DNA of 64,000 bases, taken from positions 639,916-703,915 of the forward strand of contig CP064973.1 of the NCBI GenBank assembly GCA_016699365.1, given 5' to 3'. Under the pieces are notes generated by a model. It searched no databases. It was not told where the DNA came from and was given only the letters and a program-made list of their open reading frames with translations. The DNA comes from Candidatus Nomurabacteria bacterium. GTDB lineage: Bacteria > Patescibacteriota > Minisyncoccia > Phycocordibacterales > UBA9973. Positions 15,856 to 64,000 of the stretch are shown one piece after another (position 1 is the first letter of the stretch; each line of letters opens with the position of its first letter). Made by a program: the position numbers and the translations under genes.

Positions 15856-15935
15856 GTAAATTTCTGCGATCCCGCCTCCTCGACCCCGTCGGGTCTGCGG
15901 CTCTCACAATGTGCCCCACACATTGTGAGCGTGGA
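15856..15935 (-). other. GC-rich structured trailer 3' of tRNA-Ile (11-bp stem CTCACAATGTG/CACATTGTGAG, GNRA-like hairpin GACCC-GACG-GGGTC, AATTTAC/GTAAATT stem)
   Basis: Read directly. A local GC spike in an AT-rich genome. The first stem shares nucleotides with the tRNA 3' acceptor strand. Confidence 0.35.
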
Positions 15936-15997
15936 TGGAATCGGACCATCGACCTCTGTCTTATCAGGACAGCGTTCTACCACTGAACTACACGCTC
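15926..15997 (-). tRNA. tRNA-Ile (anticodon GAU), 72 nt, CCA not encoded
   Basis: Manual fold of the minus strand. The acceptor stem GAGCGTG/CACGCTC is perfect. D-arm is GTTC-AGTGGTA-GAAC. Anticodon arm is CTGTC-CTGATAA-GACAG. T-arm is GATGG-TCCGATT-CCATC, with an atypical C at position 55. Discriminator is A. Confidence 0.8.
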
Positions 15998-50535: not shown

Positions 50536-50653
50536 TAATATTTTTAGAGAAAAGTTTCTCCAATTTGTCTCCAACTTTCAAATCGGTGAGGTATGTCAGT
50601 TATTGACTTATTTGAAATAATGTTATACAATACTAATATAAAAAGTACAAATA

Positions 50654-50998
50654 ATGAAGACAGAAAAAACCAGATACCGCACTATTTCCGATGGACATGT
50701 AGAATTTCTACAATATTATCGCACCTACAAAGTATTCTTTGGGCTCATCAAATTAAGCGCATGGACCAATGTTTGGTACCCTTACTTTGACAAGCTATGG
50801 GGACGAACACTCGACTCCTCTGGATATAACGGATATGCTTGCACTTACAATACAAACCTTGAAAAATTCAAGGATGATTGGCCAAACATAGAAGACTACT
50901 TCAAATGGGCAGAAGAACAGCAGAAAATACTTGAAGCAGAGGCAAAAGAGTATAAGGAAGAGATAGAGAAAAAGAAAGGTGAAGTAAAGATGTTGTAA
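50654..50998 (+). CDS. hypothetical protein (114 aa)
   Basis: ORF track, followed by a terminator at ~51020-51052. Confidence 0.4.
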   Translation: MKTEKTRYRTISDGHVEFLQYYRTYKVFFGLIKLSAWTNVWYPYFDKLWGRTLDSSGYNGYACTYNTNLEKFKDDWPNIEDYFKWAEEQQKILEAEAKEYKEEIEKKKGEVKML

Positions 50999-51155
50999 AA
51001 ATACAATAACTAAACTTCTTAAAGCATCATTTTTAAAGTGATGCTTTTTTATTTGATTTGCGTCACGAATACTAAGTCTACTAGTATTACTTCGAAACAC
51101 TGGACGGATTAAGTACTTGCTTGTGATCCACAATAATTTGTTCGCCATCGCTCTA

Positions 51156-51220
51156 TGTGGTCACGAATCACTAAGTATTTTATTTCGATTACTCATAAAA
51201 TACAAAGTGTTCGCGACCCC
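51156..51220. repeat. 65-bp direct repeat copy 1 (internally an imperfect hairpin GTCACGAA...GTATTTTAT-N11-ATAAAATAC...TTCGCGAC)
   Basis: Identical to 51304-51368. A degenerate third copy lies at ~51062-51105. Confidence 0.7.
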
Positions 51221-51303
51221 ACCTCGCCTGTCGCAGGGCGACATGACTGCGGCTTCACCGCGTAGCAAAAAATCCCAAGCAGTTGGGATTTTTCTGTTGT
51301 GCT

Positions 51304-51368
51304 TGTGGTCACGAATCACTAAGTATTTTATTTCGATTACTCATAAAATACAAAGTGTTCGCGACCCC
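51304..51368. repeat. 65-bp direct repeat copy 2
   Basis: Perfect identity with copy 1, 148-bp period. Confidence 0.7.
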
Positions 51369-51410
51369 GGCTCGTGGTTTTGTGTGCTCACAAAACATCA
51401 CTGCGCCCGT

Positions 51411-51458
51411 CACACATAACAAAAAGACTGGAGCAGTCCAGTCTTTTTGTTATGTGTG
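51411..51458. terminator. exceptionally long hairpin (22-bp perfect stem CACACATAACAAAAAGACTGGA/TCCAGTCTTTTTGTTATGTGTG, loop GCAG)
   Basis: Read directly. T-rich on both flanks. Confidence 0.5.
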
Positions 51459-51502
51459 AGCCTAATCGAGATGCGACCCAAAGATTCATTGCCCTGTAAG
51501 GA

Positions 51503-51697
51503 TTATTTTAACCTTTCCTTGGCGTCAGATCGACCCTTCTCGAGAGTAGCTTTCTTTGTATACAAATGAGGGTTTTGCTTCCTATCTTGATCTAGTAACC
51601 ATCGAAATACTGCGACCACTCTATCACTTTCTTCTTTAGTCCAATTTTTAGGATTTCTTTTATCTTCTTGGTTCATAAAAAGTGACAAAAGTGACAC
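51503..51697 (-). CDS. hypothetical protein (64 aa)
   Basis: ORF track. Last gene of the minus-strand operon. Confidence 0.3.
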   Translation of the reverse strand: MSLLSLFMNQEDKRNPKNWTKEESDRVVAVFRWLLDQDRKQNPHLYTKKATLEKGRSDAKERLK

Positions 51698-51740
51698 AGG
51701 TTCGACTATAAAAGTTACAGATTACTGTAACTTTTATAGT

Positions 51741-52283
51741 CTACAAACCCCAAGAATCATGAGCTTCTTTTGTGTAATGATTTAAAGTTGTTTTTGGGTG
51801 ATTATTCATATCAAATTGAGAGATTGCATCTGCTATCGGTTCCTTTTTAAAAGGGATATGAATAATTCCAACCTGCCTGTTGCTTATTGCTTTAGATAAT
51901 TCAGCAGGCCATAGATGCGAAAGAGCTGATGGATCCATAATTCTGTTGTATCCAGTGTAAGTAACTATAATTGGGATTTTGCAAGTTTCGACAGCGTACT
52001 TAATTTCAAAAGGAACCCAGTCAGTATCCAGTTTTGTAGTTTGACCAATAATCAAAAGTAAATGTTTTGAATTATTCATTCTTGCTATCAATGCTCGACG
52101 TAGAGTTTCCTTTCTACTTGAATCTCTAACAGCTCCTGTCTTTTCATGACTATTAGCAAAGCTAAAGTCATCATCTCTTACTCTCCAACCTTTCAGTAAA
52201 CTGTAGTACTTCATATCTGAAGCGGTTGGGTTTGTTTCTCCGTCTGCATGAAAAGCTATGTATGTTCCACTTCTGTATGCCAT
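51741..52283 (-). CDS. TIR-like domain protein (ThsB-like, DUF1863-type), paralogue 1
   Basis: YIAFHADGE..., ...SKHLLLIIGQTTKLDTDWVPFEIKYAVETCKIPIIV matches the ThsB pattern (memory of B. cereus ThsB). Confidence 0.65.
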   Translation of the reverse strand: MAYRSGTYIAFHADGETNPTASDMKYYSLLKGWRVRDDDFSFANSHEKTGAVRDSSRKETLRRALIARMNNSKHLLLIIGQTTKLDTDWVPFEIKYAVETCKIPIIVTYTGYNRIMDPSALSHLWPAELSKAISNRQVGIIHIPFKKEPIADAISQFDMNNHPKTTLNHYTKEAHDSWGL

Positions 52284-52286
52284 AAA

Positions 52287-53129
52287 TTAATTATGTAAAG
52301 ACTTTAAAAAATCTTGAATTTCTAATAAATTAACCTTTTCTTTATCTTCTTCTCGTATTATCAAAACCAGTTCCTTTGAAATTGTCTCAACTCTTGAGTT
52401 AATGATAAATGACAAAAGAATTAGATTGATTGGTAGCTTAAATGAAATACCAGGAACTCTTGCTAGGTTTGTACCCATAACAGGCATAACGATAGTTTTT
52501 TGCTCTCCTTCAATTCTGATCTTAGTCCAAAGGTTTTGAAGCGATACCCATAGGCTATTTATATCCGAGGTGGCTTTTAGATCAGATCCCATTCGGCTAT
52601 AAGCACAGCAAAAAAACTTCCTATTCGGTGTTGAGAGTGCTACTACTGTGCCAATTTTATATCTCTTATTTTTACCTCGAGTTTTCTCTGTGTCTTCTTC
52701 TGATTCTTCATTTTGTAATAATGTATCAAGATCAGTATCAAGTTTGTTTTGATTATTTTCATACATTGAAACTAAAAACTGACCTTGCATACTATCCTTA
52801 CTTACAACATCACCTATCTCTGTATCAAAAGTATCACTGAACCCAATCACAAGATGTCCAGATTGGTCGAATATATTACCAACCTTTATACCGATTTTTA
52901 CATCAGGATTTGAAAATGATTCAGAAAAACTAGTTTGTGGCCATGCTCTAAAGAGAGCAATAATCGCAGATATAATGATCACTGAAACCCACCCTTTCCA
53001 TCCATAACTAGGAAGATTTGTATAACTAAAAGTAACTACCTGAATGATCCCACTAATCACACCAACTGACACAAGAAAGTTCGTACCAAATTTACGAAAC
53101 ATTCTTCTTGAAAGAATAGAATTTATCAT
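52287..53129 (-). CDS. 2TM + Macro-domain protein (ThsA-like effector of type II Thoeris)
   Basis: Two N-terminal TM helices. The C-terminal motif order fits a Macro fold (IGIKVGNIF...HLVIGFSDTF...GDVV; KIGTVVALSTPN...KFFCCAY; TIVMPVMGTNLARVP). Confidence 0.55.
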   Translation of the reverse strand: MINSILSRRMFRKFGTNFLVSVGVISGIIQVVTFSYTNLPSYGWKGWVSVIIISAIIALFRAWPQTSFSESFSNPDVKIGIKVGNIFDQSGHLVIGFSDTFDTEIGDVVSKDSMQGQFLVSMYENNQNKLDTDLDTLLQNEESEEDTEKTRGKNKRYKIGTVVALSTPNRKFFCCAYSRMGSDLKATSDINSLWVSLQNLWTKIRIEGEQKTIVMPVMGTNLARVPGISFKLPINLILLSFIINSRVETISKELVLIIREEDKEKVNLLEIQDFLKSLHN

Positions 53130-53638
53130 AAGCCGAGTTGTTGATACACAGAATCAGTATATGTATATCGATGATCTTGATAATCTATATGATTCTTCCA
53201 TTTATGATAATTATCTGGAAAATGATCTAAGGCATACTGAATCGCCTTTAATTTAAAAGGTACTGAAATAGTATATTTCCAGTCTTTAATGGCAGAAGGA
53301 CAAAGGTTATCATCGTAACCTTTTTTATTATTTAAATTAACAATTACTATCGGTATGTCTTTTTTTCTTGCCAACTCAATTTCCCATGGTAAAAATTTTC
53401 TCAGATACTTAGTATTATCTCCGACCAATAAAAGCATTTGTTTAGAGTTTGCCATTCGTACTCTAAGTTGAGCTTTTATTGATTCTTCGGTGCTTGTATC
53501 CCTCGCACTATTTAGGTCATGAGCATTTAAAAAATCAAATTCAATATGATCATGTTCTTTCCATGCAGTCATTAAGCGATAATATTTCATATTGTTATCT
53601 CCATCGAAAGCAACATAAGTTTTATTCTTGTAGGACAT
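53126..53638 (-). CDS. TIR-like domain protein (ThsB-like), paralogue 2
   Basis: YVAFDGDNN..., ...SKQMLLLVGDNTKYLRKFLPWEIELARKKDIPIVIV. Confidence 0.65.
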   Translation of the reverse strand: MSYKNKTYVAFDGDNNMKYYRLMTAWKEHDHIEFDFLNAHDLNSARDTSTEESIKAQLRVRMANSKQMLLLVGDNTKYLRKFLPWEIELARKKDIPIVIVNLNNKKGYDDNLCPSAIKDWKYTISVPFKLKAIQYALDHFPDNYHKWKNHIDYQDHRYTYTDSVYQQLGL

Positions 53639-53643
53639 ATTGT

Positions 53644-53874
53644 TTATCCACGAGGTGGAAATGGGTCATTTCCATAGCTGTTACGCTCTTGGATCTTTCC
53701 GTCTTTACCATGAATAAAATGTTCAACCTTTGATTTTTCGGCAACTTTTTCAGCTCTATCAAGAGCATTATTTTTTGTATGATGTGAAGAGACAGGAGTT
53801 GATGATCCCTCTTTTTTATTTTCCCACATACTACGATCCGAATTGTATACCGTGTGTATATTTTTGTTAGCCAT
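53644..53874 (-). CDS. DUF2188-like small protein
   Basis: 76 aa, pattern HTVYNSDRSMWENKKEGS...EHFIHGKDGKIQERNSYGNDPFPP (memory). Confidence 0.45.
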   Translation of the reverse strand: MANKNIHTVYNSDRSMWENKKEGSSTPVSSHHTKNNALDRAEKVAEKSKVEHFIHGKDGKIQERNSYGNDPFPPRG

Positions 53875-53885
53875 ATATTTATAAA

Positions 53886-54572
53886 TTAACTTTTAATAAT
53901 TCCGACAACCTTTCCACTTAACTGGAAATCATCACCCTCATGAATAAATATCGGGAGATATTTATCAGTTGAATCCGCTTCAAGAACGATACGATTGTTT
54001 GCTTTGTCATTTTTGTATCTCTTGATAGTTGCCATTCCGTCTATAACAGCGACAACGATATCTCCGTTCTTGTAGTTTTTATACCCACTATCTACCAAAA
54101 CGAAATCTCCGCTCTCTATAGTATTCTTGTCATCTACTTTTGCGAGATTCATACTGTTACCGTCTGCGATAACAGAGTAGAGATCTTTCTTGTTGTATGG
54201 CAACATAGAAGATGAAACCTTGAGATACTGCTGAATATTTTGTTCGGCAAATATAGTTGCAGGACCACAGTTTGCAGATCCAACAACAGGGAGTGAGAAC
54301 ACTATATTGACGGTTGATTTCACAAGACCTCGCTTTACAGGCTTTATAACCCCTTGTTCAAGGTTCATCTGAATCATTCCAGCCTTTTCAAGCTGTAATA
54401 AGTGATATTTCACTATCTGCGGTTTGTCAGGCACGCCAATTTTATCGGCTATTGTTCTAAGGCTGTATGATCCAATGTTGTTCGGATCACTATCTATGAG
54501 AGCTAAAAGCTGTTTCTGTTTGTTGTGCATACACTCATTATAGCATACTTTTAAACCTGCAACAATATCCAT
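53886..54572 (-). CDS. LexA/CI-like repressor (N-terminal wHTH + S24 peptidase)
   Basis: Ser nucleophile in GNSM and Lys in KRYK of the S24 autopeptidase domain. The wHTH is LRTIADKIGV. Confidence 0.75.
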   Translation of the reverse strand: MDIVAGLKVCYNECMHNKQKQLLALIDSDPNNIGSYSLRTIADKIGVPDKPQIVKYHLLQLEKAGMIQMNLEQGVIKPVKRGLVKSTVNIVFSLPVVGSANCGPATIFAEQNIQQYLKVSSSMLPYNKKDLYSVIADGNSMNLAKVDDKNTIESGDFVLVDSGYKNYKNGDIVVAVIDGMATIKRYKNDKANNRIVLEADSTDKYLPIFIHEGDDFQLSGKVVGIIKS

Positions 54573-54605
54573 TTGACAGTTTTAACACCCTTTTGGTATA
54601 CTTTC
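54573..54605 (+). promoter_or_regulatory. sigma70-like promoter (TTGACA-18-TATACT) giving a leaderless transcript at ATG 54609; divergent from the repressor gene
   Basis: Read directly. Confidence 0.4.
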
Positions 54606-54608
54606 CCT

Positions 54609-55028
54609 ATGGAGCAAAGTTTGCAATTAAATCGAGTAGCACAGCTTCCAAAGAAAGGTGAAAAAGTCATCGTTCTTCAGCTTACCGACATTCAATTGCA
54701 CTCTAATGCAAGACCTACCCAATCGGTTGGTGGTGCAATACGACGCTCCATAGAAAATAATAAGCCTGGTCGTATCTTTTCTTCTCTTGAGAAGAAGCAA
54801 GAATCGAGTGTTGATCAAAATTCAATAGAGTTCACAATGCCGTTTGCAATGAACGATCCTGTTCTAAGACAAACAATCCATGATTACCAACAACAAGGTT
54901 ATCGTGTGTTGATTCAAATGCCGAAGTCAGGATTACCAATTCATCTTGGCAAGGATGCTGTCGAATTTATGAACAGTACTCGAGGAAAGCGAATCTTGAG
55001 GAAGATAAAGAAAGACAAAGGAAATTAA
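54609..55028 (+). CDS. hypothetical protein (139 aa; first gene of the rightward operon)
   Basis: ORF track, start reset to MEQSLQL. Confidence 0.4.
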   Translation: MEQSLQLNRVAQLPKKGEKVIVLQLTDIQLHSNARPTQSVGGAIRRSIENNKPGRIFSSLEKKQESSVDQNSIEFTMPFAMNDPVLRQTIHDYQQQGYRVLIQMPKSGLPIHLGKDAVEFMNSTRGKRILRKIKKDKGN

Positions 55029-55187
55029 ATAAATACGCGTCGTAAAAGCGAATAGTGCAACGCCACAAGCCATGCCTATTCCGCGCAAGAAGTAGTTTGA
55101 GGTTTTTCGGACCTCTACTTATTTCGTGTGTGGAATAGGCTTTTTCTATATCCATACATTTTATTAAAGATTAATTAATAAAATGCT

Positions 55188-56462
55188 ATGAAAAAACTTT
55201 CATGGACTACAGGAGTTCGAGAGGTCAAAGACCTACTCCCTTGGCAAGAAAACCCAAGAAAAATCTCAAAGGTTGCGTTAGATAAATTAAAGAAGAAGAT
55301 CGTACAAAACGGCTTCCACAGTGTGATAGTGATTGATACTGACAATACGATTCTGTCAGGCAACCAAAGAAAGACCGCTCTCACAGAACTTGATATCAGC
55401 ACCGTAGATGTGATGATCCCTAGTCGTAAGCTAAGTGATGCGGAACGAAGAAGGATCGGTATTGAAAGCAATATCAATGACGGCGAATGGGATTTTGAGA
55501 AATTGAAGTCATTTGATTTGGAACTGCTCCAATTTGCAGGATTCGATGAAAAAGAATTAGTGAAGTTTTGGGACGAAGAAAAAGACACTAAAGACGACAA
55601 GTTCGATGTAGACAAGGAGCTTAAGAAAATTAAAACACCTCAAACAAAGTTGGGTGATCTTATTGTCATGGGCAATCATAAGTTGCTTTGCTCAAGCTCG
55701 ACCGATATCACTGCGGTTAAAAAACTGTTCGGAGATGATAGAGCTACTGCTATCTACAGTGATCCACCTTTTAATATCGGGCTTTCCTATGACAAAGGTG
55801 TCGGCAATAAATCCAACTACGGAGGGACATTTGATGATAATCAGTCGCCTGAAGCGTACAAGGAATTTATACGCCAAGTTCTTACGTCATCACTCGCCAT
55901 ATCAACCAAAGATACTCATGTCGCATTTTGGTGTGATGAAGCGTGGGTGTGGGTTTTTCAAACCCTGTATATGGAACTAGGCGTAAAGAACCGAAGACTG
56001 AACATTTGGATCAAGAACAACTCTTCGCCTATACCAACCGTCGCATTTAACAAGTGTGCGGAGTATTGCGTGTATGGGACAAAAGGGTCGCCTTACTTGT
56101 CTGATCTAATCAAAAATCTTAATGAGATTCAAAACAAGGATTGTACTACTGGCAATCAACTTCTTGAAGATATCTCTAATATCTGGGCAACCAAGCGACT
56201 ACCATCGAACCAAATGGAACACCCTACAAGCAAAAATCCTGAACTACACCACAAGTTCATCATGCGATGCACGAAGCCAGGAGACATAATCTTTGACGCT
56301 TTTTCTGGTTCTGCCAGCACCATGATTTGTGCGGAACAATTGGATCGCAAGGTGTACTCTCTTGAAATTGAACCCGTGTTCTGCGACTTGGCAATTCGCA
56401 GATACGAAAAACTGACTGGTCGCAAAGCAAAAGTAATCAAGAACTTCTATGAAAAAGAATAA
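55188..56462 (+). CDS. ParB-like nuclease domain fused to DPPF-type (N6-adenine/N4-cytosine) DNA methyltransferase
   Basis: ParB-N region (VIVIDTDNTILSGNQR). MTase motif IV IYSDPPFN and motif I FDAFSGSAST. Confidence 0.7.
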   Translation: MKKLSWTTGVREVKDLLPWQENPRKISKVALDKLKKKIVQNGFHSVIVIDTDNTILSGNQRKTALTELDISTVDVMIPSRKLSDAERRRIGIESNINDGEWDFEKLKSFDLELLQFAGFDEKELVKFWDEEKDTKDDKFDVDKELKKIKTPQTKLGDLIVMGNHKLLCSSSTDITAVKKLFGDDRATAIYSDPPFNIGLSYDKGVGNKSNYGGTFDDNQSPEAYKEFIRQVLTSSLAISTKDTHVAFWCDEAWVWVFQTLYMELGVKNRRLNIWIKNNSSPIPTVAFNKCAEYCVYGTKGSPYLSDLIKNLNEIQNKDCTTGNQLLEDISNIWATKRLPSNQMEHPTSKNPELHHKFIMRCTKPGDIIFDAFSGSASTMICAEQLDRKVYSLEIEPVFCDLAIRRYEKLTGRKAKVIKNFYEKE

Positions 56463-56787
56463 ATTTCAAGATCAGTTCCTTGATGAACTGCGAAAAGTAC
56501 CGATTGTTCAAGTGGCTTGTGAGAAGACAGGATTATCTCGCAATAGTATTTATCGTTGGAGAAAAGATGATAAAGAATTTCTCAAGAAAATGGATGATGC
56601 CCTTGCCGAGGGTGTCGCATTGGTAAACGACATGAGTGAAAGCCAACTACTCACACTCATTAAGGAGAAGAATTATCCTGCAATTAGCTTCTGGCTTAAA
56701 CACCGCAATGATAACTATAAAAATAAGCTAGAGATCACTACTAAAGAAGATTCCGAACAGCTTACACCGTCACAGCAAAAATCGTGA
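56449..56787 (+). CDS. HTH-domain protein, possible terminase small subunit
   Basis: N-terminal HTH CEKTGLSRNSIYRWRK. Position immediately upstream of TerL. Confidence 0.4.
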   Translation: MKKNKFQDQFLDELRKVPIVQVACEKTGLSRNSIYRWRKDDKEFLKKMDDALAEGVALVNDMSESQLLTLIKEKNYPAISFWLKHRNDNYKNKLEITTKEDSEQLTPSQQKS

Positions 56788-56802
56788 AGCAGGCACTTAA
56801 AC

Positions 56803-58353
56803 TTGCCAACATCACAAAGTCGAAATCAATTAAAAACATTAATTCTAAAAAGCACCATGACTAAAATAATTCCAAATGCATTGGTGAATACCATGCTCAA
56901 AGATCGTTCTGTTCGTACCTCTATTACCAAAGACAGTTTTCTGTATTTCTTCCACTTCTACTACGCCCACTATGTGAAATACGAAACTGCTGACTTTCAA
57001 AAAGAGATTATTCATAATCTTGAAAAAAGCTCGACAGAGAATATGTACGTTGTCGCATTCCGTGGATCAGGAAAATCTACTCTGGTAACAACTGCATATC
57101 CTATCTGGGCAATACTTGGAAAACAGCAAAAGAAGTTCTGTATTATCTTTTGCCAAACTCGTGCACAAGCAAAACAGCACATGATGAATATCCGTACTGA
57201 GCTTGAGGGTAACGATGTTCTTAAAAAGGATCTTGGACCATTCCAAGAAGAAAGTGATGAGTGGGGTTCGTTCTCATTAGTATTCAAAAAGCACGGAGCA
57301 AGAATCACCGTAGCTTCTGCCGAGCAAAGTATCCGTGGTATTCGCCACAACGAACACCGTCCAGACTTAATAATCTGTGATGACGTTGAGGACGTGCAAT
57401 CTACCAAAAACCGTGAGGGACGAGACAAAACATATCACTGGCTTCGAGGTGAAGTTATCCCTGCTGGCGATAGAAACACTCGACTAATTATTGTTGGAAA
57501 CTTACTCCACGAAGATTCACTCTTGATGCGTATTAAAGACGAAATTGCCAAAGGTAAAGCAAAAGGAATATTCAAAGAGTACCCACTGATAGATAATCAC
57601 GGCGTGTGCTTATGGTCAGGTAAATACAAAAGCGAGAAAGACCTTGAGGATGAAAAGTTGAAGGTTTCTAGCGATATATCATGGCAACGAGAATACCTGT
57701 TACGCATTATTCCAGACGATGATCAAGTTATTTATCCTGAATGGATCAACTACTATGACGAATTGCCTGGCGAAAAGCACCGAGGATATCGAGGTACTTA
57801 TGCAGGTGTCGATCTTGCGATTTCAGCTTCAGAAACTGCCGATGATACTGCTGTTGTATTTGCTCATATATATTCACGCCGTGAGAAAATGCGAATATAC
57901 ATATTGCCTAACCCTATCGCAAAGAAACTTAACTTTCCTGCACAAGTAGATCTCATGAAAGATATTCGTAGCACCATGCTCATAAAAAGTACCGATGAAC
58001 TGTTTGTGGAAAGCGTAGCGTATCAGGAAGCACTACCGCAAATGCTTGAACACCAAGGTGTTAAGGCGACAGCAATCAAACCTAAAGGAGACAAACGAAC
58101 TCGACTTGCCCTAACTTCGACTGCAATAAAATCATCAAAGATATTATTCCCAAGACAAGGATGCGAGAGACTTATTGAGCAACTTGTAGGGTTTGGAGTA
58201 GAAAAGCATGATGACCTTGCCGATGCATTTTCGTTGCTGATAAACTCAACTATGGATAAGCATGCCAAAGATTCAACATGGCTTATGTACTGGATGGGAG
58301 ATGAAGAACCTTTGTACTATAGAGATTATGTTGATATGGACATAAAAAAGTAG
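56803..58353 (+). CDS. phage terminase large subunit
   Basis: Walker A FRGSGKST, Walker B LIICDD. C-terminal RNaseH-like nuclease (GVDLAISASETADDTAVVFA). Confidence 0.7.
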   Translation: MPTSQSRNQLKTLILKSTMTKIIPNALVNTMLKDRSVRTSITKDSFLYFFHFYYAHYVKYETADFQKEIIHNLEKSSTENMYVVAFRGSGKSTLVTTAYPIWAILGKQQKKFCIIFCQTRAQAKQHMMNIRTELEGNDVLKKDLGPFQEESDEWGSFSLVFKKHGARITVASAEQSIRGIRHNEHRPDLIICDDVEDVQSTKNREGRDKTYHWLRGEVIPAGDRNTRLIIVGNLLHEDSLLMRIKDEIAKGKAKGIFKEYPLIDNHGVCLWSGKYKSEKDLEDEKLKVSSDISWQREYLLRIIPDDDQVIYPEWINYYDELPGEKHRGYRGTYAGVDLAISASETADDTAVVFAHIYSRREKMRIYILPNPIAKKLNFPAQVDLMKDIRSTMLIKSTDELFVESVAYQEALPQMLEHQGVKATAIKPKGDKRTRLALTSTAIKSSKILFPRQGCERLIEQLVGFGVEKHDDLADAFSLLINSTMDKHAKDSTWLMYWMGDEEPLYYRDYVDMDIKK

Positions 58354-58425
58354 TCGCGAGTATGCGACGTATCTCTAGTTCTGCATAGACTATGCACCAC
58401 CAACTGGTCTGTCATTAATTAATAT

Positions 58426-59706
58426 ATGACAGAAGTCGAACAAAGCCAGATGAAATATTGCTTGTACGCTCGTAAATCAACCGAAGCAGAAGAAAAGCAA
58501 GCCCTTTCTATTGATTCCCAAATCAAGGAAATGAAGCAGATTGCCGAGCGAGAAAATCTAACCATAGTTGAGATCCGTAAGGAATCTCACTCTGCAAAAG
58601 AATCTGGACAAAGACCAGTATTTGAGGAGATCGTAAAAGATATTGATACGGGGATATTCAACGGAATCATTACATGGGCACCTGATAGATTATCTCGTAA
58701 TGCAGGTGATCTTGGAAAACTTGTAGATAGAATGGATCAAAGGAAACTGATTCAGATCAAAACTTTTGGTCAGACTTTTTCCAATTCACCAAGTGATAAG
58801 TTCTTGTTGATGATCCTTTGTAGTCAGGCAAAACTCGAAAATGATAACAAGAGTATTAATGTAAAGCGTGGTATGAGAGCTAGATGTGAAATGGGTTTAT
58901 GGCCAGTACAACCACCAACAGGATACAGAAAGCCTAATCAACGACTAGCTAAGTGTGAGGTAGAAATCGATCCAGAACGATCTGATACCATACGACAAAT
59001 ATTCGAGAAGATTAGTTATGAAAAATGGAGCGTATCGAAAGTACACGCATGGCTACGATACGATCTTGATTTCAAAACCCATAGAGGTTTTCATCTAAGT
59101 TTAGGAAATGTATTCAAAATTATAAATAATACTTTCTACTATGGTCGCTTTGAGTTCCCACAAGGATCAGGTGTTTGGTATGAGGGAAAGCATAAACCCA
59201 TTATCACTAAAGAGTTGTTTGATGAGACCAGAAATTCTATCAAGTCGCAGACGATAAAATCACAAGGTAAGGAGTTCGCCTTTACGCGAATTATGAAATG
59301 TGGAGCTTGCGGATCAGGTATTACTGCCGATGAAAAATTCAAGAAGTTATTGAATGGTGGAGTTAACCGACATGTATATTATCGATGCACAAAAGCCAAA
59401 GACAGGAATTGTAAAAATCCTGCATTAAACGAAACTGAGCTTATCGAATCACTACTCGATATGGTTGATACCTTGAACATAAACAAGGTAAAACTCACCG
59501 CAAAGCTTGATATTGAAATTCAAAAGTTTAAGAAATTGCAGGCAATGTTCTTAGGAAAGAAAAAGACAGAAAAAATAGAACCGATTGATCTCAAGGACTA
59601 CACAAAATTTGTACTAAAAGAGGGATCTCCACTAGAGCAGAGATCCATCTTGGAATGTATCAGTAGTGAGTTGGTTTTGAAGAATAAAATAATAAAAATT
59701 ACTTAA
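58426..59706 (+). CDS. large serine recombinase (integrase)
   Basis: N-terminal catalytic YARKSTEAEEKQ...SIDSQ, recombinase domain, zinc-ribbon CGACGSG...YYRCTKAKDRNC, C-terminal coiled coil. Confidence 0.8.
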   Translation: MTEVEQSQMKYCLYARKSTEAEEKQALSIDSQIKEMKQIAERENLTIVEIRKESHSAKESGQRPVFEEIVKDIDTGIFNGIITWAPDRLSRNAGDLGKLVDRMDQRKLIQIKTFGQTFSNSPSDKFLLMILCSQAKLENDNKSINVKRGMRARCEMGLWPVQPPTGYRKPNQRLAKCEVEIDPERSDTIRQIFEKISYEKWSVSKVHAWLRYDLDFKTHRGFHLSLGNVFKIINNTFYYGRFEFPQGSGVWYEGKHKPIITKELFDETRNSIKSQTIKSQGKEFAFTRIMKCGACGSGITADEKFKKLLNGGVNRHVYYRCTKAKDRNCKNPALNETELIESLLDMVDTLNINKVKLTAKLDIEIQKFKKLQAMFLGKKKTEKIEPIDLKDYTKFVLKEGSPLEQRSILECISSELVLKNKIIKIT

Positions 59707-60847
59707 TCTTAATTATTGATTCAGTTGTTTTATCGTAAGTGTAGTTAACAATCTCTCCCTTTATTATTAGTTCAATCACATTTCCGATCACCATAATTGG
59801 TGCAATAAACCACTCTTTCGGAGTGTAGTTTTTTCCATTGTTGTCAGTGATTTCAATATCTAGACAGGAATCACTAAAGAAGCGATGTATCAATCGTTCA
59901 AATCTTTGAGGATTCATATTGAAACATCTATAGGTCGCAACAATAGACACTGGAGCCATGAGATAAGTTGGATCTTGCTGTGCGTTTTTTATACGATCTT
60001 CAACACTCGTAGTCGAGAACCCAATCTTGAAAAGATTTTTTGTACTAGAAATTCTAGGATTATCACTTAATGACTTAAGTACATAGATATAGCCAGTTTC
60101 TGAATCTCCGTCTTCAACGCTTGCAATATCTTGATTATCTTTTACGGCATAGCCCGCGTCAGACAATCTCTTTCCTAATGATCGCAAAAGCACACTTGAT
60201 TCAGTACCGTTTTCGTAAATACAACGAGTTCGTCGGTTTATCTTTTGACTGTTTCCTCGATATGGATCATAGATCTTTTCTAGATATATTAAGACACCAC
60301 TAAGAACAAAGAAGTCTCCTTGCTTCATCTCGCTTTCAACGAAAGTGGCAAGTTTTTTAGTACCATTTTTTAAATCTCTCTGAGTCTGTGCAAATAAATG
60401 CTCATACTGGTCAAAATCAGCACAAATCTCTCTTTGAGCCACGAAGTCAGGATCAGAACGATCTTGTCGTATCTCTGGAACATTCTTTATGTTAAAAACA
60501 GAACTATCTTCAATAGAAAGTAAGTCCAGATCATCATCTTCAAAAATATCACTTACTGTATCAATATCTTTTTTCTCAATCTTTAAAAGACCATGAGTAT
60601 CATACTTACTTAGGAAGTCTCGTTGCTCTTTATTTTCTCTGATGTGCTTAAGGCGTGATGCGAGTTTGTGTTCATGAATATCTCCGCCACTTTTAGGTTC
60701 AGCATTATGTACTGCAAAGAACTCATTTATTTCCATAAATGATTCTGTTAAACGATCATCAGGCGTAGCAGAAACAGCTTTCTTGTCTATGTCGAGAAGA
60801 CCTAAGTCATCATCATTTATTAAATCTAGTAAATCGTTTTTATCCAT
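59699..60847 (-). CDS. T5orf172/GIY-YIG-like nuclease domain protein with acidic repeat N-terminus
   Basis: C-terminal GYIYVLKSLSDN...KIGFSTTSVEDRIKN. N-terminal repeated DDDLxLL(D/S)I(D/E) motifs. Confidence 0.5.
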   Translation of the reverse strand: MDKNDLLDLINDDDLGLLDIDKKAVSATPDDRLTESFMEINEFFAVHNAEPKSGGDIHEHKLASRLKHIRENKEQRDFLSKYDTHGLLKIEKKDIDTVSDIFEDDDLDLLSIEDSSVFNIKNVPEIRQDRSDPDFVAQREICADFDQYEHLFAQTQRDLKNGTKKLATFVESEMKQGDFFVLSGVLIYLEKIYDPYRGNSQKINRRTRCIYENGTESSVLLRSLGKRLSDAGYAVKDNQDIASVEDGDSETGYIYVLKSLSDNPRISSTKNLFKIGFSTTSVEDRIKNAQQDPTYLMAPVSIVATYRCFNMNPQRFERLIHRFFSDSCLDIEITDNNGKNYTPKEWFIAPIMVIGNVIELIIKGEIVNYTYDKTTESIIKIK

Positions 60848-60848
60848 A

Positions 60849-62786
60849 TTAATTTTGAATTTGTTCAGCCTTGAGCTTCTTCAAGTACAGTACCGCTTCC
60901 GCCAAACGCTTCTCAAGGGGGTCAGACGAAGATATGTCTGGCTTTCGACCTGTTTGTATTGTGAACTCCTTAGCTTTAGGCCATAGGATCTTAACTTCTT
61001 CTGGTGTCATCTCGATTCGAGATGAATCAATTGTATCTTGAATAACCTTAAGGATACTTGAAGTCACTGATTTTGAGAGAATCTCAAAAGCTTCTTGGAA
61101 CGGATTGATACTGTCGATAAGGTCAATATTTAGATCATCAATATTCACAAACTGACCTGCCATACGAACAAATTTCTTATCACCAACTTCTTTGATTTCT
61201 CCGTTCTTGATTACAGAATCAACAACAACGTGTTGACGAACTTCCTCTACTTCAAGATCTGTTAGATCAGGGTATTTCATTTGAATAATCTTTGGGATCA
61301 TTACTTTGTTGATTACCTCGGGATCAACATTTCCAGGCAACGCTTTAATCATTTGATCATCTTGAAGAATTGAAGCTTTGAGGTCGTTGATATCAGATTC
61401 AATAATCTCTCGCACACGATCAGTACTTGGTGCTTTAAAACCCTTTATTTTTATTTCACCTGGAGTAAAGGTAGTGTCATCATTTGGGAATCGTGGTTTG
61501 AAGTTATAGTGCGGAGCCATGACTTGTTCCATAAGCAAAGAACAAGTGATCGCCTTGAGCATGTTGTTTACTGACACTTTAACCTCGCCGTCTTTTGCAT
61601 CAGGCTGAGCAATAAGATTAGTAAATTGTGCATGAGTTTTGTTTGCACTGTCACGAGTACAGCGACCGATAATCTGAATGATCTCCGTGAGAGAGCTTCG
61701 GTAGCCCACAGTCAAAGCATGTTCACAGTATGGCCAGTCAAATCCTTCCTTTGCCATACCAAGAGCAATAATGATATCCATGTCATCCTCCTTTTTCATT
61801 GTGCGGAGGTAGTTTGAAATCTTATCTCGATCAACTGAATCATCGACAAGGTTTGCTACTTTAAGCATCTTTCCGTCACCGTCACGCTTTACATAGATAA
61901 CACCGGTCTCATGATCTTGATGATCTACTTCTCCAATAATGTCCAAGATTAGATCAACCTCGTTGAGCTTGTCTTTTGTAGATTCTCCAGAGTTTACGTT
62001 TGGAATGTGTAAAATCGTTTTCTTATTCGTATCCAAAACCTCAGCAATCGCTGATGTGTATTTACCTTGATAAAAGTGATATCCAATACCCAAGGTTTTT
62101 AAATAGGTATAACCGTTCAATTGCTGATAGTAGTTGTATGTCACTTTCTGGAACTTTGCCTCATCTTGTGGCAACAGAACTGCAACACCATCGCCTCGAA
62201 AATATGATCCAGTCATCGCAATGATATGAGCATTCGAGTTCGTCATTATTCCATGCAGAACTCGTCCCAAAATACTGCTTTCCTTGTCGGCAGACACATG
62301 ATGAAATTCATCGATCGCAATGAGAATGTCATTAAATTTTGCATCTTCAATTTGCTCACATGCAAAACGAAGAGTGGCATGAGTACAGATAAGAATCTTC
62401 TCATCGTTATCCATAAAATTCTTGAATGCCTCAACCTTTCCTTTGGCATTATCAAGACCTGGGGTACAAAGGTTATAGTTATCATTTGGTTTCCAGTCTG
62501 CGAAAAATCCATTATCAGTTAGATTGGTTTCGCTAAATGATCCACCAATTGATTTTTCAGGAACGGCGACAATCACTTTTTTGATACCTTGATTAGTCAG
62601 CTTATCTAGAGCAAGGAACATCAAAGCACGAGATTTTCCCGATGCTGGAGGAGCTTTCAAAAGTAGGTATTGAGCTGTTCTTTTCTCAAATGCTTTTGCC
62701 TGCATTTCACGCATACCAAAATTATTGATTTTGGTACTTTCTCCTGTTTGGGCATATGTTGCTTCTGCAACTTGAATGGTTTTCAT
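60849..62786 (-). CDS. SF2 DExH helicase (ResIII-like N-terminus + Helicase_C)
   Basis: Motif I APPASGKS, motif II IDEFHH, motif VI IIQIIGRCTR. ~200-aa uncharacterised C-terminus. Confidence 0.7.
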   Translation of the reverse strand: MKTIQVAEATYAQTGESTKINNFGMREMQAKAFEKRTAQYLLLKAPPASGKSRALMFLALDKLTNQGIKKVIVAVPEKSIGGSFSETNLTDNGFFADWKPNDNYNLCTPGLDNAKGKVEAFKNFMDNDEKILICTHATLRFACEQIEDAKFNDILIAIDEFHHVSADKESSILGRVLHGIMTNSNAHIIAMTGSYFRGDGVAVLLPQDEAKFQKVTYNYYQQLNGYTYLKTLGIGYHFYQGKYTSAIAEVLDTNKKTILHIPNVNSGESTKDKLNEVDLILDIIGEVDHQDHETGVIYVKRDGDGKMLKVANLVDDSVDRDKISNYLRTMKKEDDMDIIIALGMAKEGFDWPYCEHALTVGYRSSLTEIIQIIGRCTRDSANKTHAQFTNLIAQPDAKDGEVKVSVNNMLKAITCSLLMEQVMAPHYNFKPRFPNDDTTFTPGEIKIKGFKAPSTDRVREIIESDINDLKASILQDDQMIKALPGNVDPEVINKVMIPKIIQMKYPDLTDLEVEEVRQHVVVDSVIKNGEIKEVGDKKFVRMAGQFVNIDDLNIDLIDSINPFQEAFEILSKSVTSSILKVIQDTIDSSRIEMTPEEVKILWPKAKEFTIQTGRKPDISSSDPLEKRLAEAVLYLKKLKAEQIQN

Positions 62787-62790
62787 AAAA

Positions 62791-64000
62791 TTATTTGTTA
62801 GTTTTTCTAGTAATCATCTCTTCATAAAGTTTGAACAAGTGAGCTAGTCGATCCTCGTCACCTTCAAACGGTTTGCTTCGGTATATCTGATCTATTGCTT
62901 GATCTAAATATTTGTGAGCTTCTCGCAATCCGTCAGGCATTTTATTTGGATCATATAATTCAGCTATTGTTTTGTCTGGATATCTTTCTCGCTCGCTGAG
63001 AATATTATATGCATGGGTACTAAGTGCTTCTTTTTGTTTTTCTGTAATAGCAGGAAAAGGAAACGTATTGTACGACAACGCAGTCAGGTATCGAATACTT
63101 TCTCCTAATTTTCCCGAGGTCAACCTTACCCACAGTAGATGCATTTTTGAACTTATTACTGAAAATATGTAGGTTGGCGGATCATAAATAACTGCTGCCG
63201 AACTCAAAACTATTACATCTTTTGATGAAAAACCTATTGGCATGTATTCTCTTCTTTCAGAAAAAACAATTGGAATAATTATTAAAGAATTTTTTGCAGT
63301 ATGAGTATATCTAAATTGATGTGGTCTCTTAACAAGACCTCTTGCCACATCGCCACCGTTCATTCTAAATTCTCTAACTCGATTAATTCTTTCTGCAATT
63401 TCAGGTATTCGCTCTGCATCCTTACGGTCCTCATCATTAATCCATAGACACCACCTATCAATATGGTTAATGAATTCATCTGATCCAATTGCTCTTCTCA
63501 GAAACTTTCTTGCATCTGGGTATTGATTTTGGAGCTTATTCTTTTCTGTTGTATTTAATGTTAAATTTCCAGCTTCATAAGGACTATTACCAGTAATCAT
63601 GACTGGGAAGTTAGAAATTGGTTTTAAAGATTTAGAAATATAAAAATCATCACCATTAACTAAGTAACCGTTTATATTTTTTACTTCCAATTTAATATTT
63701 CCTGTATAAAGATATTTTTTACCCTTAGATCTATTCCTTATGCCAATGATAGAACAAGTAACACCTGCTTTATTCTTTGCATTATTACTCCATGTAAAGG
63801 GCTTGTATGCAAAAAAGATTTCTTTGTTTAAAATAGAGATTTTAGGCCACATCTGTTCGACCTGAGATCCTTCACATAACGAACTCGTAGTAACAAAAGC
63901 AAACTTACAACTGTCTGTTATGTACAAGGCCGCTTTTATAAACCAACAAGCAACATAGTCCAATTCTTTATAATTACCGATTTTGTCAAAACAAATACCC
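62791..64000 (-). CDS. gamma-class N6-adenine DNA methyltransferase, C-terminal part with TaqI-like target-recognition domain (5' end beyond window)
   Basis: The frame continues upstream of the track's TTG start (..GICFDKIGNYKELDYVACWFIKAALYI..KFAFVTTSS). This matches the post-NPPY helix/strand of TaqI-type MTases. The C-terminal ...RLAHLFKLYEEM tail is as in MmeI-like enzymes (memory). Confidence 0.55.
   Translation of the reverse strand, partial: GICFDKIGNYKELDYVACWFIKAALYITDSCKFAFVTTSSLCEGSQVEQMWPKISILNKEIFFAYKPFTWSNNAKNKAGVTCSIIGIRNRSKGKKYLYTGNIKLEVKNINGYLVNGDDFYISKSLKPISNFPVMITGNSPYEAGNLTLNTTEKNKLQNQYPDARKFLRRAIGSDEFINHIDRWCLWINDEDRKDAERIPEIAERINRVREFRMNGGDVARGLVKRPHQFRYTHTAKNSLIIIPIVFSERREYMPIGFSSKDVIVLSSAAVIYDPPTYIFSVISSKMHLLWVRLTSGKLGESIRYLTALSYNTFPFPAITEKQKEALSTHAYNILSERERYPDKTIAELYDPNKMPDGLREAHKYLDQAIDQIYRSKPFEGDEDRLAHLFKLYEEMITRKTNK

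What the first reader, a model, noticed from the sequence alone, without database searches (positions are those of the whole stretch)
51741..53638. Thoeris-like defence module with two TIR (ThsB-like) paralogues bracketing a 2TM-Macro effector
Three co-oriented minus-strand genes are packed with a -4 nt overlap and a +3 nt gap. The outer two (180 and 170 aa) are paralogues. Both carry the ThsB/DUF1863 TIR-like pattern: an N-terminal YxAF strand and the block SK(Q/H)(M/L)LL(L/I)(V/I)G..T..S.WV..EI......IPI(I/V)V. The middle gene has two TM helices plus a domain whose motif order fits a Macro fold. TIR plus TM-Macro is the architecture reported for 'type II' Thoeris, in which the TIR sensor makes an ADP-ribose-derived signal that a Macro effector binds. 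That mechanism and the Bacillus ThsB comparison are from memory. What stands out here: there are duplicated, diverged TIR sensors; the host is a small low-GC, CPR-like genome; and the module is cargo of a tiny integrative element. If real, it may be a compact Thoeris variant with two sensor specificities feeding one membrane effector.
Basis: partly seen in the sequence, partly recalled or inferred. Interest (0 to 1): 0.85.

Follow-up and report, generated by a model that had tools for sequence, protein, structure and literature searches.

The report
Type II Thoeris on a CPR island
The three genes are a standard type II Thoeris anti-phage system (two TIR sensor genes around one membrane-anchored Macro-domain effector) carried on a mobile island in a Pacebacteria (CPR) genome; automated tools would call it, so it is a correct find, not a new kind of system.

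Summary
Three co-oriented minus-strand ORFs (170, 280 and 180 aa) have a 4-nt overlap and a 3-nt gap. The outer two are 35 % identical. Both match Pfam ThsB_TIR and full-length PADLOC ThsB models. The middle gene matches ThsA_Macro (2.8e-54) and PADLOC ThsA (4e-82), has two N-terminal TM helices, and its model superposes on the solved ThsA Macro structures (TM 0.81-0.84).

The catalytic Tyr8/Glu pair is kept in both ThsBs. The ThsA pocket keeps the invariant Arg that contacts the histidine carboxylate of His-ADPR.

This is an ordinary type II Thoeris. The two ThsBs belong to different old subfamilies (EcThsB2-like and 3HYN/9UV0-like). The same ordered triad occurs outside CPR bacteria. Type II systems with two ThsBs have already been characterised in E. 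coli.

The host is a Pacebacteria (CPR) bacterium. The module lies directly downstream of an S24 repressor, on an integrative element that also carries a ParB-methylase, TerS, TerL and a serine integrase. Same-species contigs show an empty site. The element is not tiny: the insertion runs from 51453 past the window end (at least 12.5 kb).

Novelty: new member of a known kind. The element family is the more interesting part.

The parts
53126..53638 (-). thsB-b: 170-aa ThsB TIR-like sensor of the EcThsB2 type ('subfamily 9'). Active-site Tyr8 and Glu86. C-terminal aromatic tail YTYTDSVYQQLGL.
   Evidence: Pfam PF08937 1.2e-15. PADLOC ThsB PDLC00429 8.7e-70, full length. PDB 8V6T (EcThsB2) 4e-37 over residues 1-170, with Y8, the catalytic Glu and the tail tyrosines aligned (residue roles from PMC11204291).
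52287..53129 (-). thsA: 280-aa effector. Two N-terminal TM helices (about 14-37 and 41-68), then a ThsA-type Macro domain (79-259+). Pocket residues G84, N85, F101-D102-T103, S113, Q115, G116, S178, G219, R224.
   Evidence: Pfam PF20016 2.8e-54, profile positions 1-183/183. PADLOC ThsA 4e-82. PDB 8V6Q/8R66/9UUZ 1e-15 to 1e-17. AF2 model pLDDT 86.6. Foldseek top hits EcThsA, BaThsA:His-ADPR and PcThsA, TM 0.81-0.84. Hydropathy. Family alignments.
51741..52283 (-). thsB-a: 180-aa ThsB TIR-like sensor of the 3HYN/9UV0 type. Tyr8 and W89xxxE93 are invariant in its family.
   Evidence: Pfam PF08937 8.1e-15. PADLOC ThsB PDLC00421 4e-64. PDB 3HYN 1.5e-15 and 9UV0 (ThsB) 3.4e-15. More than 1158 homologues. 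Alignment A3. AF2 pLDDT 83.5. Foldseek 3HYN TM 0.73, then TIR and DNPH1/NDT folds.
53644..53874 (-). DUF2188 gene (76 aa) between the repressor and thsB-b. An optional neighbour, not a Thoeris core gene.
   Evidence: Pfam PF09954 6.3e-19. PADLOC candidate PDC-S16 5e-27. Present in L001-L003, L010 and L021. Absent in L012, L013, L016 and L019.
53886..54572 (-). LexA/CI-like S24 autoproteolytic repressor, the first gene of the co-directional run repressor-DUF2188-thsBb-thsA-thsBa. Intergenic gaps are 11, 5, -4 and 3 nt.
   Evidence: Pfam Peptidase_S24 1.8e-20. TIGR00498 LexA 4e-23, below its cut-off. PHROG 4 repressor 1e-19. Coordinates.
54573..54602 (+). Strong sigma-70-like promoter (TTGACA-18-TATACT with TG, 11/12) for the divergent operon. 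It abuts the annotated repressor start codon.
   Evidence: sequence.
54573..55028 (+). Conserved gene of unknown function, the first gene of the divergent operon. It probably starts at the ATG at 54611 (139 aa).
   Evidence: No family hits. Conserved in L001, L003, L010, L014, L019, L024 and L025. Called as 139 aa in L001 and L003.
55188..56462 (+). ParB-N-domain / N6-N4 DNA methyltransferase fusion.
   Evidence: Pfam N6_N4_Mtase 2.2e-27. PHROG 498 3.6e-72 and ParB-like PHROGs.
56449..56787 (+). Small terminase-like HTH protein.
   Evidence: PHROG 4044 TerS 6.4e-10. HTH Pfam hits.
56803..58353 (+). Large terminase subunit.
   Evidence: PHROG 38 TerL 2.3e-76. Terminase_6C and Terminase_6N weak hits.
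58426..59706 (+). Large serine recombinase (integrase).
   Evidence: Pfam Resolvase 3.6e-20, Recombinase and Zn_ribbon_recom. PHROG 95 integrase 7.8e-62.
51503..51697 (-). Conserved 64-aa ORF at the element's left end, function unknown.
   Evidence: Conserved after thsB-a in L001-L003 and L010-L013. No family hit.
51704..51741 (.). Perfect 17-bp inverted repeat with a 4-nt loop, overlapping the thsB-a stop codon. Possibly a terminator or an operator.
   Evidence: Inverted repeat I4.
51449..51459 (.). Left junction of the inserted element. Homology to the empty site ends at 51452. The conserved element terminus GTGAGCCTAATCGAGATGCGACCC starts at 51456.
   Evidence: The empty-site contigs L027-L029 diverge after 51452. 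L030 and L034 are occupied. The flanks differ in L002 and L010.
59699..64000 (-). Further inserted DNA: a T5orf172 protein, an SF2 helicase, and a type IIG (MmeI-family) restriction-methylase gene that runs off the window end.
   Evidence: Pfam. PADLOC REase_MTase_IIG 9.4e-136, model positions 517-911/912. The reading frame is open to base 64000. The right flank of the empty site is not found in the window.

Best explanation

Shown here:
- The 280-aa protein is a full-length member of the TM-Macro ThsA family. It has two N-terminal transmembrane helices and a ThsA-type Macro fold.
- Both flanking proteins are ThsB TIR-like proteins. Both have the Tyr8/Glu active-site pair that is typical of ThsBs found with TM-Macro effectors.
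- The two ThsBs belong to different subfamilies, one EcThsB2-like and one 3HYN/9UV0-like.
- The genes form one tight co-directional run behind an S24 (LexA/CI-like) repressor, on an integrative element in a Pacebacteria genome.

Inferred from characterised homologues:
- On phage infection, either ThsB is activated and converts NAD+ into an ADP-ribose conjugate. His-ADPR is the signal in the B. amyloliquefaciens system.
- The ligand binds the ThsA Macro pocket. That pocket here includes the invariant Arg224, the equivalent of the Arg that holds the histidine carboxylate.
- Binding drives Macro-domain oligomerisation and clustering of the TM helices. The membrane is perturbed, and the cell dies or stops growing before the phage completes its cycle.
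- Two different ThsBs most likely widen the range of phages sensed while sharing one effector.
- Because the genes follow the repressor gene with 11-, 5-, -4- and 3-nt spacings, they are probably transcribed with it while the element is integrated. This would resemble cI-rexAB in lambda.
For: - Profiles: Pfam ThsA_Macro 2.8e-54 over the whole model; ThsB_TIR 8e-15 and 1e-15. PADLOC ThsA 4e-82, ThsB 4e-64 and 9e-70, all full length.
- Solved relatives: ThsA against 8V6Q/8R66/9UUZ/8V6S. ThsB-b against 8V6T EcThsB2, 4e-37 end to end. ThsB-a against 3HYN and 9UV0.
- Folds: the ThsA model (pLDDT 86.6) has helices 8-35 and 44-62 plus a Macro domain. The top Foldseek hits are the ThsA Macro crystal structures, TM 0.81-0.84. 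The ThsB-a model matches 3HYN, then TIR and DNPH1/NDT folds.
- Residues: Y8 and E93 are invariant in the ThsB-a family and are present as Y8 and E86 in ThsB-b. G84, F101-D102-T103, S113, Q115, G116, G219 and R224 are invariant in 34 ThsA relatives, and S178 is nearly invariant.
- Mechanism from homologues: His-ADPR and its pocket residues in bioRxiv 10.1101/2024.01.03.573942. Oligomerisation and TM clustering in PMC11204291. ThsA plus a subgroup-9 ThsB2 is sufficient for defence and the TM helices are essential, in bioRxiv 10.64898/2026.01.22.701046.
- Conservation: the ThsA protein is identical on 7 contigs. The triad is kept in Pacebacteria, Saccharibacteria and other MAGs down to 55 % ThsA identity, and in a non-element context, L036.
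- Context: the genes sit next to a type IIG R-M gene, a helicase and a T5orf172 gene, on a mobile element with a demonstrated empty site.
Against: - Nothing functional was tested.
- Two pocket positions differ from the two liganded structures. The adenine-N6 Asp (BaThsA D100, EcThsA D83) is Asn85 here and in the closest relatives only. The distal-ribose Asn (Ba N133, Ec N114) is Gln115 throughout this clade. The adenine-stacking Tyr/His is Arg259. The exact ligand could therefore differ.
- Purified EcThsB2, the closest solved relative of ThsB-b, showed no NADase activity in vitro (PMC11204291).
- The outcome of effector activation is unsettled. It is reported as a pore or abortive infection in Bacillus, but as growth arrest without death markers in E. 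coli ATCC 25922.
- Co-transcription with the repressor is inferred from spacing only. The promoter scan is not informative on the minus strand.
Confidence: 0.9

Rival explanations
1. It is the same system, but the two ThsBs are not independent sensors. One would be a non-signalling regulator or an obligate partner (a hetero-oligomer) of the other.
For: EcThsB2, the relative of ThsB-b, had no NADase activity in vitro, and its C-terminal tail is predicted to block TIR self-association (PMC11204291). The pair is kept together in most copies of the element.
Against: Both proteins keep the Tyr/Glu active site. Each subfamily occurs alone with a TM-Macro ThsA: ThsB-b alone in L015 and L021, and ThsB-a alone in Bradyrhizobium (L035) and in a Desulfobacteraceae MAG (L037). 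An E. coli subgroup-9 ThsB2 plus ThsA is sufficient for defence. The alleles also reassort independently. In L016, ThsB-b is 73 % identical while ThsA and ThsB-a are 93-94 %. In L012, ThsB-b is 95 % while the other two are 82-86 %.
Confidence: 0.15
2. It is a type II-like system that uses a signal other than His-ADPR, for example another amino-acid or imidazole conjugate of ADPR. This would follow from a remodelled Macro pocket.
For: The substitutions D->N85, N->Q115 and Y/H->R259 lie at ligand-contacting positions. Type II ThsA Macro domains are already known to bind both His-ADPR and IAD (PMC11204291).
Against: Arg224, the contact of the histidine carboxylate, is invariant, and so are S178 and the glycine-rich loops. 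Asn and Gln can make the same hydrogen bonds as Asp and Asn. Q115 is a property of the whole clade, which includes non-CPR members such as Streptomyces.
Confidence: 0.15
3. The module is an inactive relic on a decaying prophage and has no present function.
For: The visible part of the element has no capsid, tail or replication genes. One relative (L021) lacks the integrase.
Against: All three ORFs are intact, with catalytic and pocket residues conserved. The same gene set is kept at 53-100 % protein identity in many MAGs and at different insertion sites. Occupied and empty alleles coexist in one species at 96-97 % nucleotide identity, which indicates recent mobility.
Confidence: 0.04

Closest known systems
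Type II Thoeris of Bacillus amyloliquefaciens Y2 (ThsA TM-Macro + one ThsB; signal His-ADPR; PDB 8R66)
   Same: The ThsA architecture is the same: 2 TM helices plus a ThsA-type Macro domain (Foldseek TM 0.82). The His-carboxylate Arg (R240 = R224 here), S194 (= S178) and the Q135 equivalent (Q117) are conserved. ThsB-a is nearest to 3HYN and 9UV0; 9UV0 is probably this system's ThsB.
   Different: There are two ThsBs here instead of one. Macro-domain sequence identity is only about 22-24 %. D100 is replaced by N85, N133 by Q115 and Y277 by R259. The host is a CPR bacterium, and the genes sit in a mobile-element repressor operon.
E. coli TM-Macro Thoeris with ThsB1 + ThsB2 (PMC11204291; E. coli ATCC 25922 system, bioRxiv 10.64898/2026.01.22.701046)
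   Same: One ThsA serves two different ThsBs. ThsB-b matches EcThsB2 (PDB 8V6T) end to end at E 4e-37, with the Y8/Glu active site and the aromatic C-terminal tail. The ThsA Macro domain is the best structural match (8V6Q).
   Different: The second E. coli ThsB (ThsB1) is a PF13676 TIR protein with an N-terminal extension. Here the second ThsB is another PF08937 Tyr-type protein. All three genes are co-oriented here, whereas thsB2 is inverted in ATCC 25922.
Lambda cI-rexA-rexB and other prophage or satellite immunity-operon defence cargo (P4 and PICI hotspots); comparison from general knowledge
   Same: A defence system lies immediately downstream of, and co-oriented with, the repressor of an integrated element. 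A related element holds a different system in the same slot: L022 has two TIR genes plus an 8xMP membrane protein.
   Different: The element backbone (S24 repressor, ParB-methylase, TerS, TerL, serine integrase, type IIG R-M) matched no satellite family. I ran no satellite-specific detection tool. Co-transcription was not shown.

Membership tests
Type II Thoeris | Effector with a C-terminal ThsA-type Macro domain | tested here: met
   PF20016 2.8e-54, 1-183/183. PADLOC ThsA 4e-82. Foldseek top hits are the ThsA Macro crystal structures, TM 0.81-0.84.
Type II Thoeris | N-terminal transmembrane helices on ThsA | tested here: met
   Kyte-Doolittle maxima at about 14-37 and 41-68. AF2 helices at 8-35 and 44-62. 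No dedicated TM predictor was available.
Type II Thoeris | One or more adjacent ThsB TIR-domain genes | tested here: met
   Two PF08937 genes flank thsA with a -4 nt and a +3 nt junction.
Type II Thoeris | Catalytic glutamate in the ThsB TIR domain, with the active-site tyrosine of TM-Macro-specific subfamilies | tested here: met
   Y8/E93 in ThsB-a and Y8/E86 in ThsB-b. Both positions are invariant in alignment A3 and align to Y8/E89 of EcThsB2 (PMC11204291).
Type II Thoeris | Macro pocket residues that bind His-ADPR/ADPR | tested here: inconclusive
   R224, S178, Q117 and the G84/G116/G219 loops are conserved. D->N85, N->Q115 and Y/H->R259 are substituted.
Type II Thoeris | ThsB makes His-ADPR (or a related ADPR conjugate) on infection, and the system protects against phage | not testable with these tools
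   This needs phage challenge and LC-MS.
ThsB 'subfamily 9' (EcThsB2-like) | About 170 aa, a single TIR-like domain, active-site Tyr H-bonded to the Glu, a roughly 20-residue C-terminal tail with conserved tyrosines, and association only with TM-Macro ThsA | tested here: met
   ThsB-b aligns to 8V6T over residues 1-170 at E 4e-37, including Y8, the Glu and the tail Y-x-Y...Y. It lies next to a TM-Macro ThsA. The tail fold itself was not modelled.
Phage satellite (PICI/P4-like sense) | Integrase, repressor and packaging gene(s), with no capsid or tail genes | tested here: inconclusive
   Integrase, S24 repressor, TerS and TerL are present. No structural genes lie in 51453-64000. The right end of the insertion lies beyond the window. 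No replication module was found.
Phage satellite (PICI/P4-like sense) | Helper-phage-dependent induction and packaging | not testable with these tools
   No helper phage is known. Related backbones do occur in IMG/VR contigs L022-L026.

The most novel reading that the evidence does not exclude
The Thoeris genes may be the immunity-operon cargo of an undescribed family of integrative elements in CPR bacteria. These elements carry terminase genes but no visible capsid genes, so they are candidate phage satellites. The backbone is S24 repressor | orfX-ParB-methylase-TerS-TerL-(cargo)-serine integrase-type IIG R-M. The slot behind the repressor exchanges different TIR-signalling systems: ThsB-ThsA(Macro)-ThsB here, and two TIR genes plus an 8xMP membrane protein in L022. 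If so, ultra-small episymbionts would acquire abortive-infection or signalling immunity through hyperparasitic elements of their own phages.
Probability: 0.3. Interest if true: 0.65.

Novelty: new member of a known kind. Interest (0 to 1): 0.3.

Why it matters
As a Thoeris system it adds little. PADLOC-type tools call it directly, and both the two-ThsB arrangement and the mechanism have been published.

It is useful as a clean example of TIR/Macro signalling immunity in a Pacebacteria (CPR) genome. The ThsA protein is identical in several metagenomes. Empty and occupied alleles coexist in one species, which shows that ultra-small symbionts gain such systems by recent horizontal transfer.

The carrier element could be worth a study of its own. 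It has a repressor-operon slot that swaps TIR systems, it encodes a terminase but no visible capsid genes, and it also carries a type IIG R-M gene. The natural pocket variants (N85, Q115, R259) could inform ligand-specificity work on ThsA Macro domains.

Tried and rejected
- NCBIfam gave no hit for the three Thoeris proteins. This reflects library coverage and is not evidence against the assignment.
- Thoeris on a phage: an IMG/VR scan with ThsA found no viral contig encoding a relative. The TerL scan found the backbone without Thoeris.
- Finding the right end of the element failed. No terminal repeat matches the left end. The integrase 3' end overlaps a convergent gene here and in L012 and L013. 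The right flank of the empty site (DUF1801 and glyoxalase genes) is absent from the window. An exact look-up of the helicase found nothing. An exact look-up of the window's own purA also found nothing; the empty site was reached through a 99 % identical homologue.
- tRNA-targeted integration is rejected. The only tRNA is at 15925-15997.
- The 71-nt tandem repeat and the hairpins at 51156-51459 were checked against Rfam. Nothing came near any gathering score. They belong to the host flank, because they are present in the empty-site contigs.
- 'Recent duplication of the TIR gene' is rejected. The two are 35 % identical, they match different PADLOC models and different PDB relatives, and the same ordered pair occurs in L036 at 49 % and 62 % identity.
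- DUF2188 as a fourth Thoeris component is rejected. It is missing from many otherwise identical operons.
- Literature searches for Thoeris in Patescibacteria, for satellites in Patescibacteria and for PDB 9UV0 returned nothing specific. One search call failed on term length.
Full report
**Observation.** The ORF scan reproduces the three minus-strand genes exactly as described: 53126-53638 (170 aa, here ThsB-b), 52287-53129 (280 aa, ThsA) and 51741-52283 (180 aa, ThsB-a). The first junction is an ATGA overlap of 4 nt and the second is a 3-nt gap. The two outer proteins are 35 % identical (E 2e-25). Both show the N-terminal T-Y-(I/V)-A-F strand and the SK..LL..G..T...(F/W)EI...IPI(I/V)V block. 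The middle protein has two hydrophobic segments, at about 14-37 and 41-68.

**What the genes are.**
- Pfam assigns both outer proteins to ThsB_TIR (PF08937; 8.1e-15 and 1.2e-15). It assigns the middle one to ThsA_Macro (PF20016; 2.8e-54, covering the whole 183-position model).
- PADLOC models match all three end to end: ThsA 4e-82, ThsB-a 4e-64 (PDLC00421) and ThsB-b 8.7e-70 (PDLC00429).
- Against the PDB, ThsA hits only ThsA Macro structures: 8V6Q/8V6R EcThsA, 8V6S PcThsA, 8R66 and 9UUZ.
- ThsB-b aligns over its full length to EcThsB2 (8V6T, 4e-37).
- ThsB-a is closest to 3HYN and to 9UV0, which is labelled ThsB (about 1e-15). 9UV0 was deposited next to 9UUZ, whose aligned sequence equals the B. 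amyloliquefaciens ThsA of 8R66. It is therefore probably that system's ThsB. This is my inference.
- An AlphaFold2 model of ThsA (34-sequence alignment, pLDDT 86.6, pTM 0.78) shows two long N-terminal helices (8-35, 44-62) and an alpha/beta domain. Its best Foldseek matches are the ThsA Macro crystal structures (TM 0.81-0.84), followed by generic macro domains.
- The ThsB-a model (pLDDT 83.5) matches 3HYN (TM 0.73), then TIR domains and DNPH1/nucleoside deoxyribosyltransferases. Shi et al. reported the same pattern for Tyr-containing ThsBs (PMC11204291).

**Functional residues.** EcThsB2's active site is Y8/E89. ThsB-b has Y8/E86 and ThsB-a has Y8/E93. Both positions are invariant in a 28-sequence alignment, and ThsB-a also keeps the WxxxE motif.

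I mapped the His-ADPR contacts of B. amyloliquefaciens ThsA (D100, N133, Q135, S194, R240, Y277) and the ADPR contacts of EcThsA (D83, N114, S175, H259) onto the window protein through the HMMER alignments and a 29-sequence alignment.
- R224 (= R240, the contact of the histidine carboxylate) is invariant.
- G84, F101-D102-T103, S113, G116 and G219 are invariant, and S178 (= S194) is nearly so. Q117 corresponds to Q135.
- Three positions differ. The adenine-N6 Asp is Asn85, in the closest relatives only. The distal-ribose Asn is Gln115, and this holds for the whole clade. The stacking Tyr/His is Arg259, a variable column.
- I read these as conservative variation, but they leave some room for a different ligand.

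**The two ThsBs are not a new duplication.**
- They match different PADLOC models and different solved relatives.
- The ThsB-a family has more than 1158 members across CPR, Bacteroidota, Desulfobacterota and Bradyrhizobium. In three non-CPR contexts examined it lies directly downstream of a ThsA_Macro gene.
- One of those contexts (L036) has the same ordered triad: ThsB-b-like (49 %), ThsA (32 %), ThsB-a-like (62 %).
- Each subfamily also occurs alone with ThsA: ThsB-b in L015 and L021, ThsB-a in L035 and L037.
- Within the element family the three genes reassort. In L016, ThsB-b is 73 % identical while ThsA and ThsB-a are 93-94 %. In L012, ThsB-b is 95 % while the other two are 82-86 %. In L019, both ThsBs are about 80 % but ThsA is 55 %.
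- All of this fits independent sensors sharing one effector.
- The idea is already in the literature. 'One or multiple ThsB genes' is part of the original definition of Thoeris (quoted in PMC11204291). E. coli type II systems with ThsB1 + ThsB2 have been studied structurally and genetically.

**Context.** The Thoeris genes are the distal part of a tight co-directional run: S24 LexA/CI-like repressor (53886-54572), DUF2188 (53644-53874), thsB-b, thsA, thsB-a, a perfect 17-bp hairpin, and a conserved 64-aa ORF.

The divergent strand starts with a strong sigma-70-like promoter at 54573-54602. It encodes a conserved unknown protein, a ParB-N6/N4 methyltransferase, TerS, TerL and a large serine recombinase. 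Beyond that lie a T5orf172 protein, an SF2 helicase and a type IIG R-M gene that runs off the window.

**Host.** The host is a Pacebacteria/Paceibacterota (CPR) bacterium.
- The adjacent purA is 99 % identical to one from a 'Candidatus Pacebacteria' MAG.
- The ThsA protein is identical in a Paceibacterota MAG contig (L008).
- Close relatives of the element occur in Patescibacteria and Saccharibacteria MAGs.

**Mobility.**
- Contigs from the same species (96-97 % nucleotide identity) exist in two states. L030 and L034 carry the element at the same site. L027-L029 lack it.
- In the empty contigs, homology to the window stops at 51452 and continues into DUF1801/glyoxalase genes that are nowhere in the window.
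- The conserved element terminus (GTGAGCCTAATCGAGATGCGACCC, from 51456) abuts three different flanks in the window, L002 and L010.
- The left end is therefore mapped to 51453 +/- 4. The right end lies beyond base 64000, so the insertion is at least 12.5 kb and is not 'tiny'.
- The backbone (repressor | orfX-methylase-TerS-TerL-(cargo)-integrase) recurs down to 53-55 % ThsA identity (L019, L021).
- It also recurs in IMG/VR contigs without Thoeris (L022-L026). In L022 the slot behind the repressor holds two ThsB-type TIR genes and an 8xMP membrane protein instead.
- I saw no capsid, tail or replication genes. The element could be a satellite-like island or a defence island with phage-derived packaging genes. 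I could not decide between these.

**Mechanism.**
- Shown: domain identities, TM helices, active-site and pocket conservation, operon-like packing, mobility.
- Inferred from homologues: phage-triggered activation of either ThsB, production of His-ADPR or a close ADPR conjugate from NAD+, binding to the ThsA Macro pocket, ligand-induced oligomerisation that clusters the TM hairpins, and membrane perturbation leading to death or growth arrest.
- Also inferred: expression together with the repressor in the integrated state.

**Comparison and verdict.** Every sequence-testable defining feature of type II Thoeris is met. Only the ligand-pocket test is inconclusive, and function is untestable here. 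ThsB-b also meets the published features of ThsB subfamily 9.

The finding is a correct identification of a known system in an under-studied host. It is a new member of a known kind, with interest about 0.3. The most novel reading still open is that the carrier is a new family of terminase-bearing satellites of CPR phages with a swappable TIR-system slot (probability about 0.3).

Noticed in passing
window 51453-64000+; L010, L012, L013, L016, L019, L021, L022-L026: There is a conserved integrative-element backbone in CPR MAGs and IMG/VR contigs: S24 repressor | unknown gene-ParB/N6N4 methylase-TerS-TerL-(variable cargo)-large serine recombinase. No capsid, tail or replication genes are visible. 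It is a possible new satellite-like family.
   Followed up: partly
L027-L029 (empty) versus window 51452/51453 and L030, L034 (occupied): Empty and occupied alleles of the insertion site coexist in one Pacebacteria species at 96-97 % nucleotide identity. The right flank of the empty site (DUF1801 and glyoxalase genes) is not in the window, so the insertion exceeds 12.5 kb.
   Followed up: yes
L022:3582-4907 (-): On a related backbone, the slot behind the repressor holds two ThsB-type TIR genes (PF08937 1e-14; the other weak at 1e-3) and an 8xMP octameric membrane protein (PF24838, 1e-45) instead of ThsB-ThsA-ThsB. This looks like a different TIR-signalling system in the same position.
   Followed up: partly
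L010-L013, L016, L019 versus window 51741-53638: Identity is mosaic across the three Thoeris genes. In L016, ThsB-b is 73 % while ThsA and ThsB-a are 93-94 %. In L012, ThsB-b is 95 % while the other two are 82-86 %. In L019, both ThsBs are about 80 % but ThsA is 55 %. This suggests recombinational shuffling of sensor and effector alleles.
   Followed up: partly
window 51156-51226 and 51304-51374 (plus hairpins 51359-51377 and 51410-51459): A 71-nt tandem direct repeat (97 % identical, 148 nt apart) lies in the host flank. Each copy is followed by a different GC-rich hairpin and a T-run. There is no Rfam match. Only one copy region aligns to the empty-site contigs. It may be small RNA genes or a promoter duplication.
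   Followed up: partly
window 50600-51239 versus L027:5100-5737: Between purA and the insertion site, the window carries a different segment from its sister contigs. The window has a 114-aa ORF plus the extra repeat copy. The sister contigs have a 207-aa minus-strand gene. This is a second local replacement next to the element.
   Followed up: no
window 59699-64000 (-): A T5orf172/MUG113 protein, an SF2 helicase (weak PbeA and Cas3 similarity) and an MmeI-family type IIG restriction-methylase (PADLOC 9e-136, C-terminal 390 aa, ORF open to the window end) lie tail to tail with the integrase. L012 also has a type IIG gene convergent with its integrase.
   Followed up: partly
window 53644-53874 (-): A DUF2188 protein (PADLOC candidate defence PDC-S16; PHROG 3220) is inserted between the repressor and thsB-b in some copies of the element and absent in others.
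   Followed up: partly
window 49152-50507 (+): Apart from three close Pacebacteria-like sequences (99, 77 and 72 % identity), the best purA homologues are about 50 % identical and come from Bacteroidota (Chitinophagaceae). This hints that the gene was acquired horizontally by this CPR lineage.
   Followed up: no
L016/L017:1865-3268: A diversity-generating-retroelement pair (RVT_1 reverse transcriptase + bAvd) and a ResIII/YagJ protein lie just beyond TerL in the copy of the element with 93 % ThsA identity.
   Followed up: no
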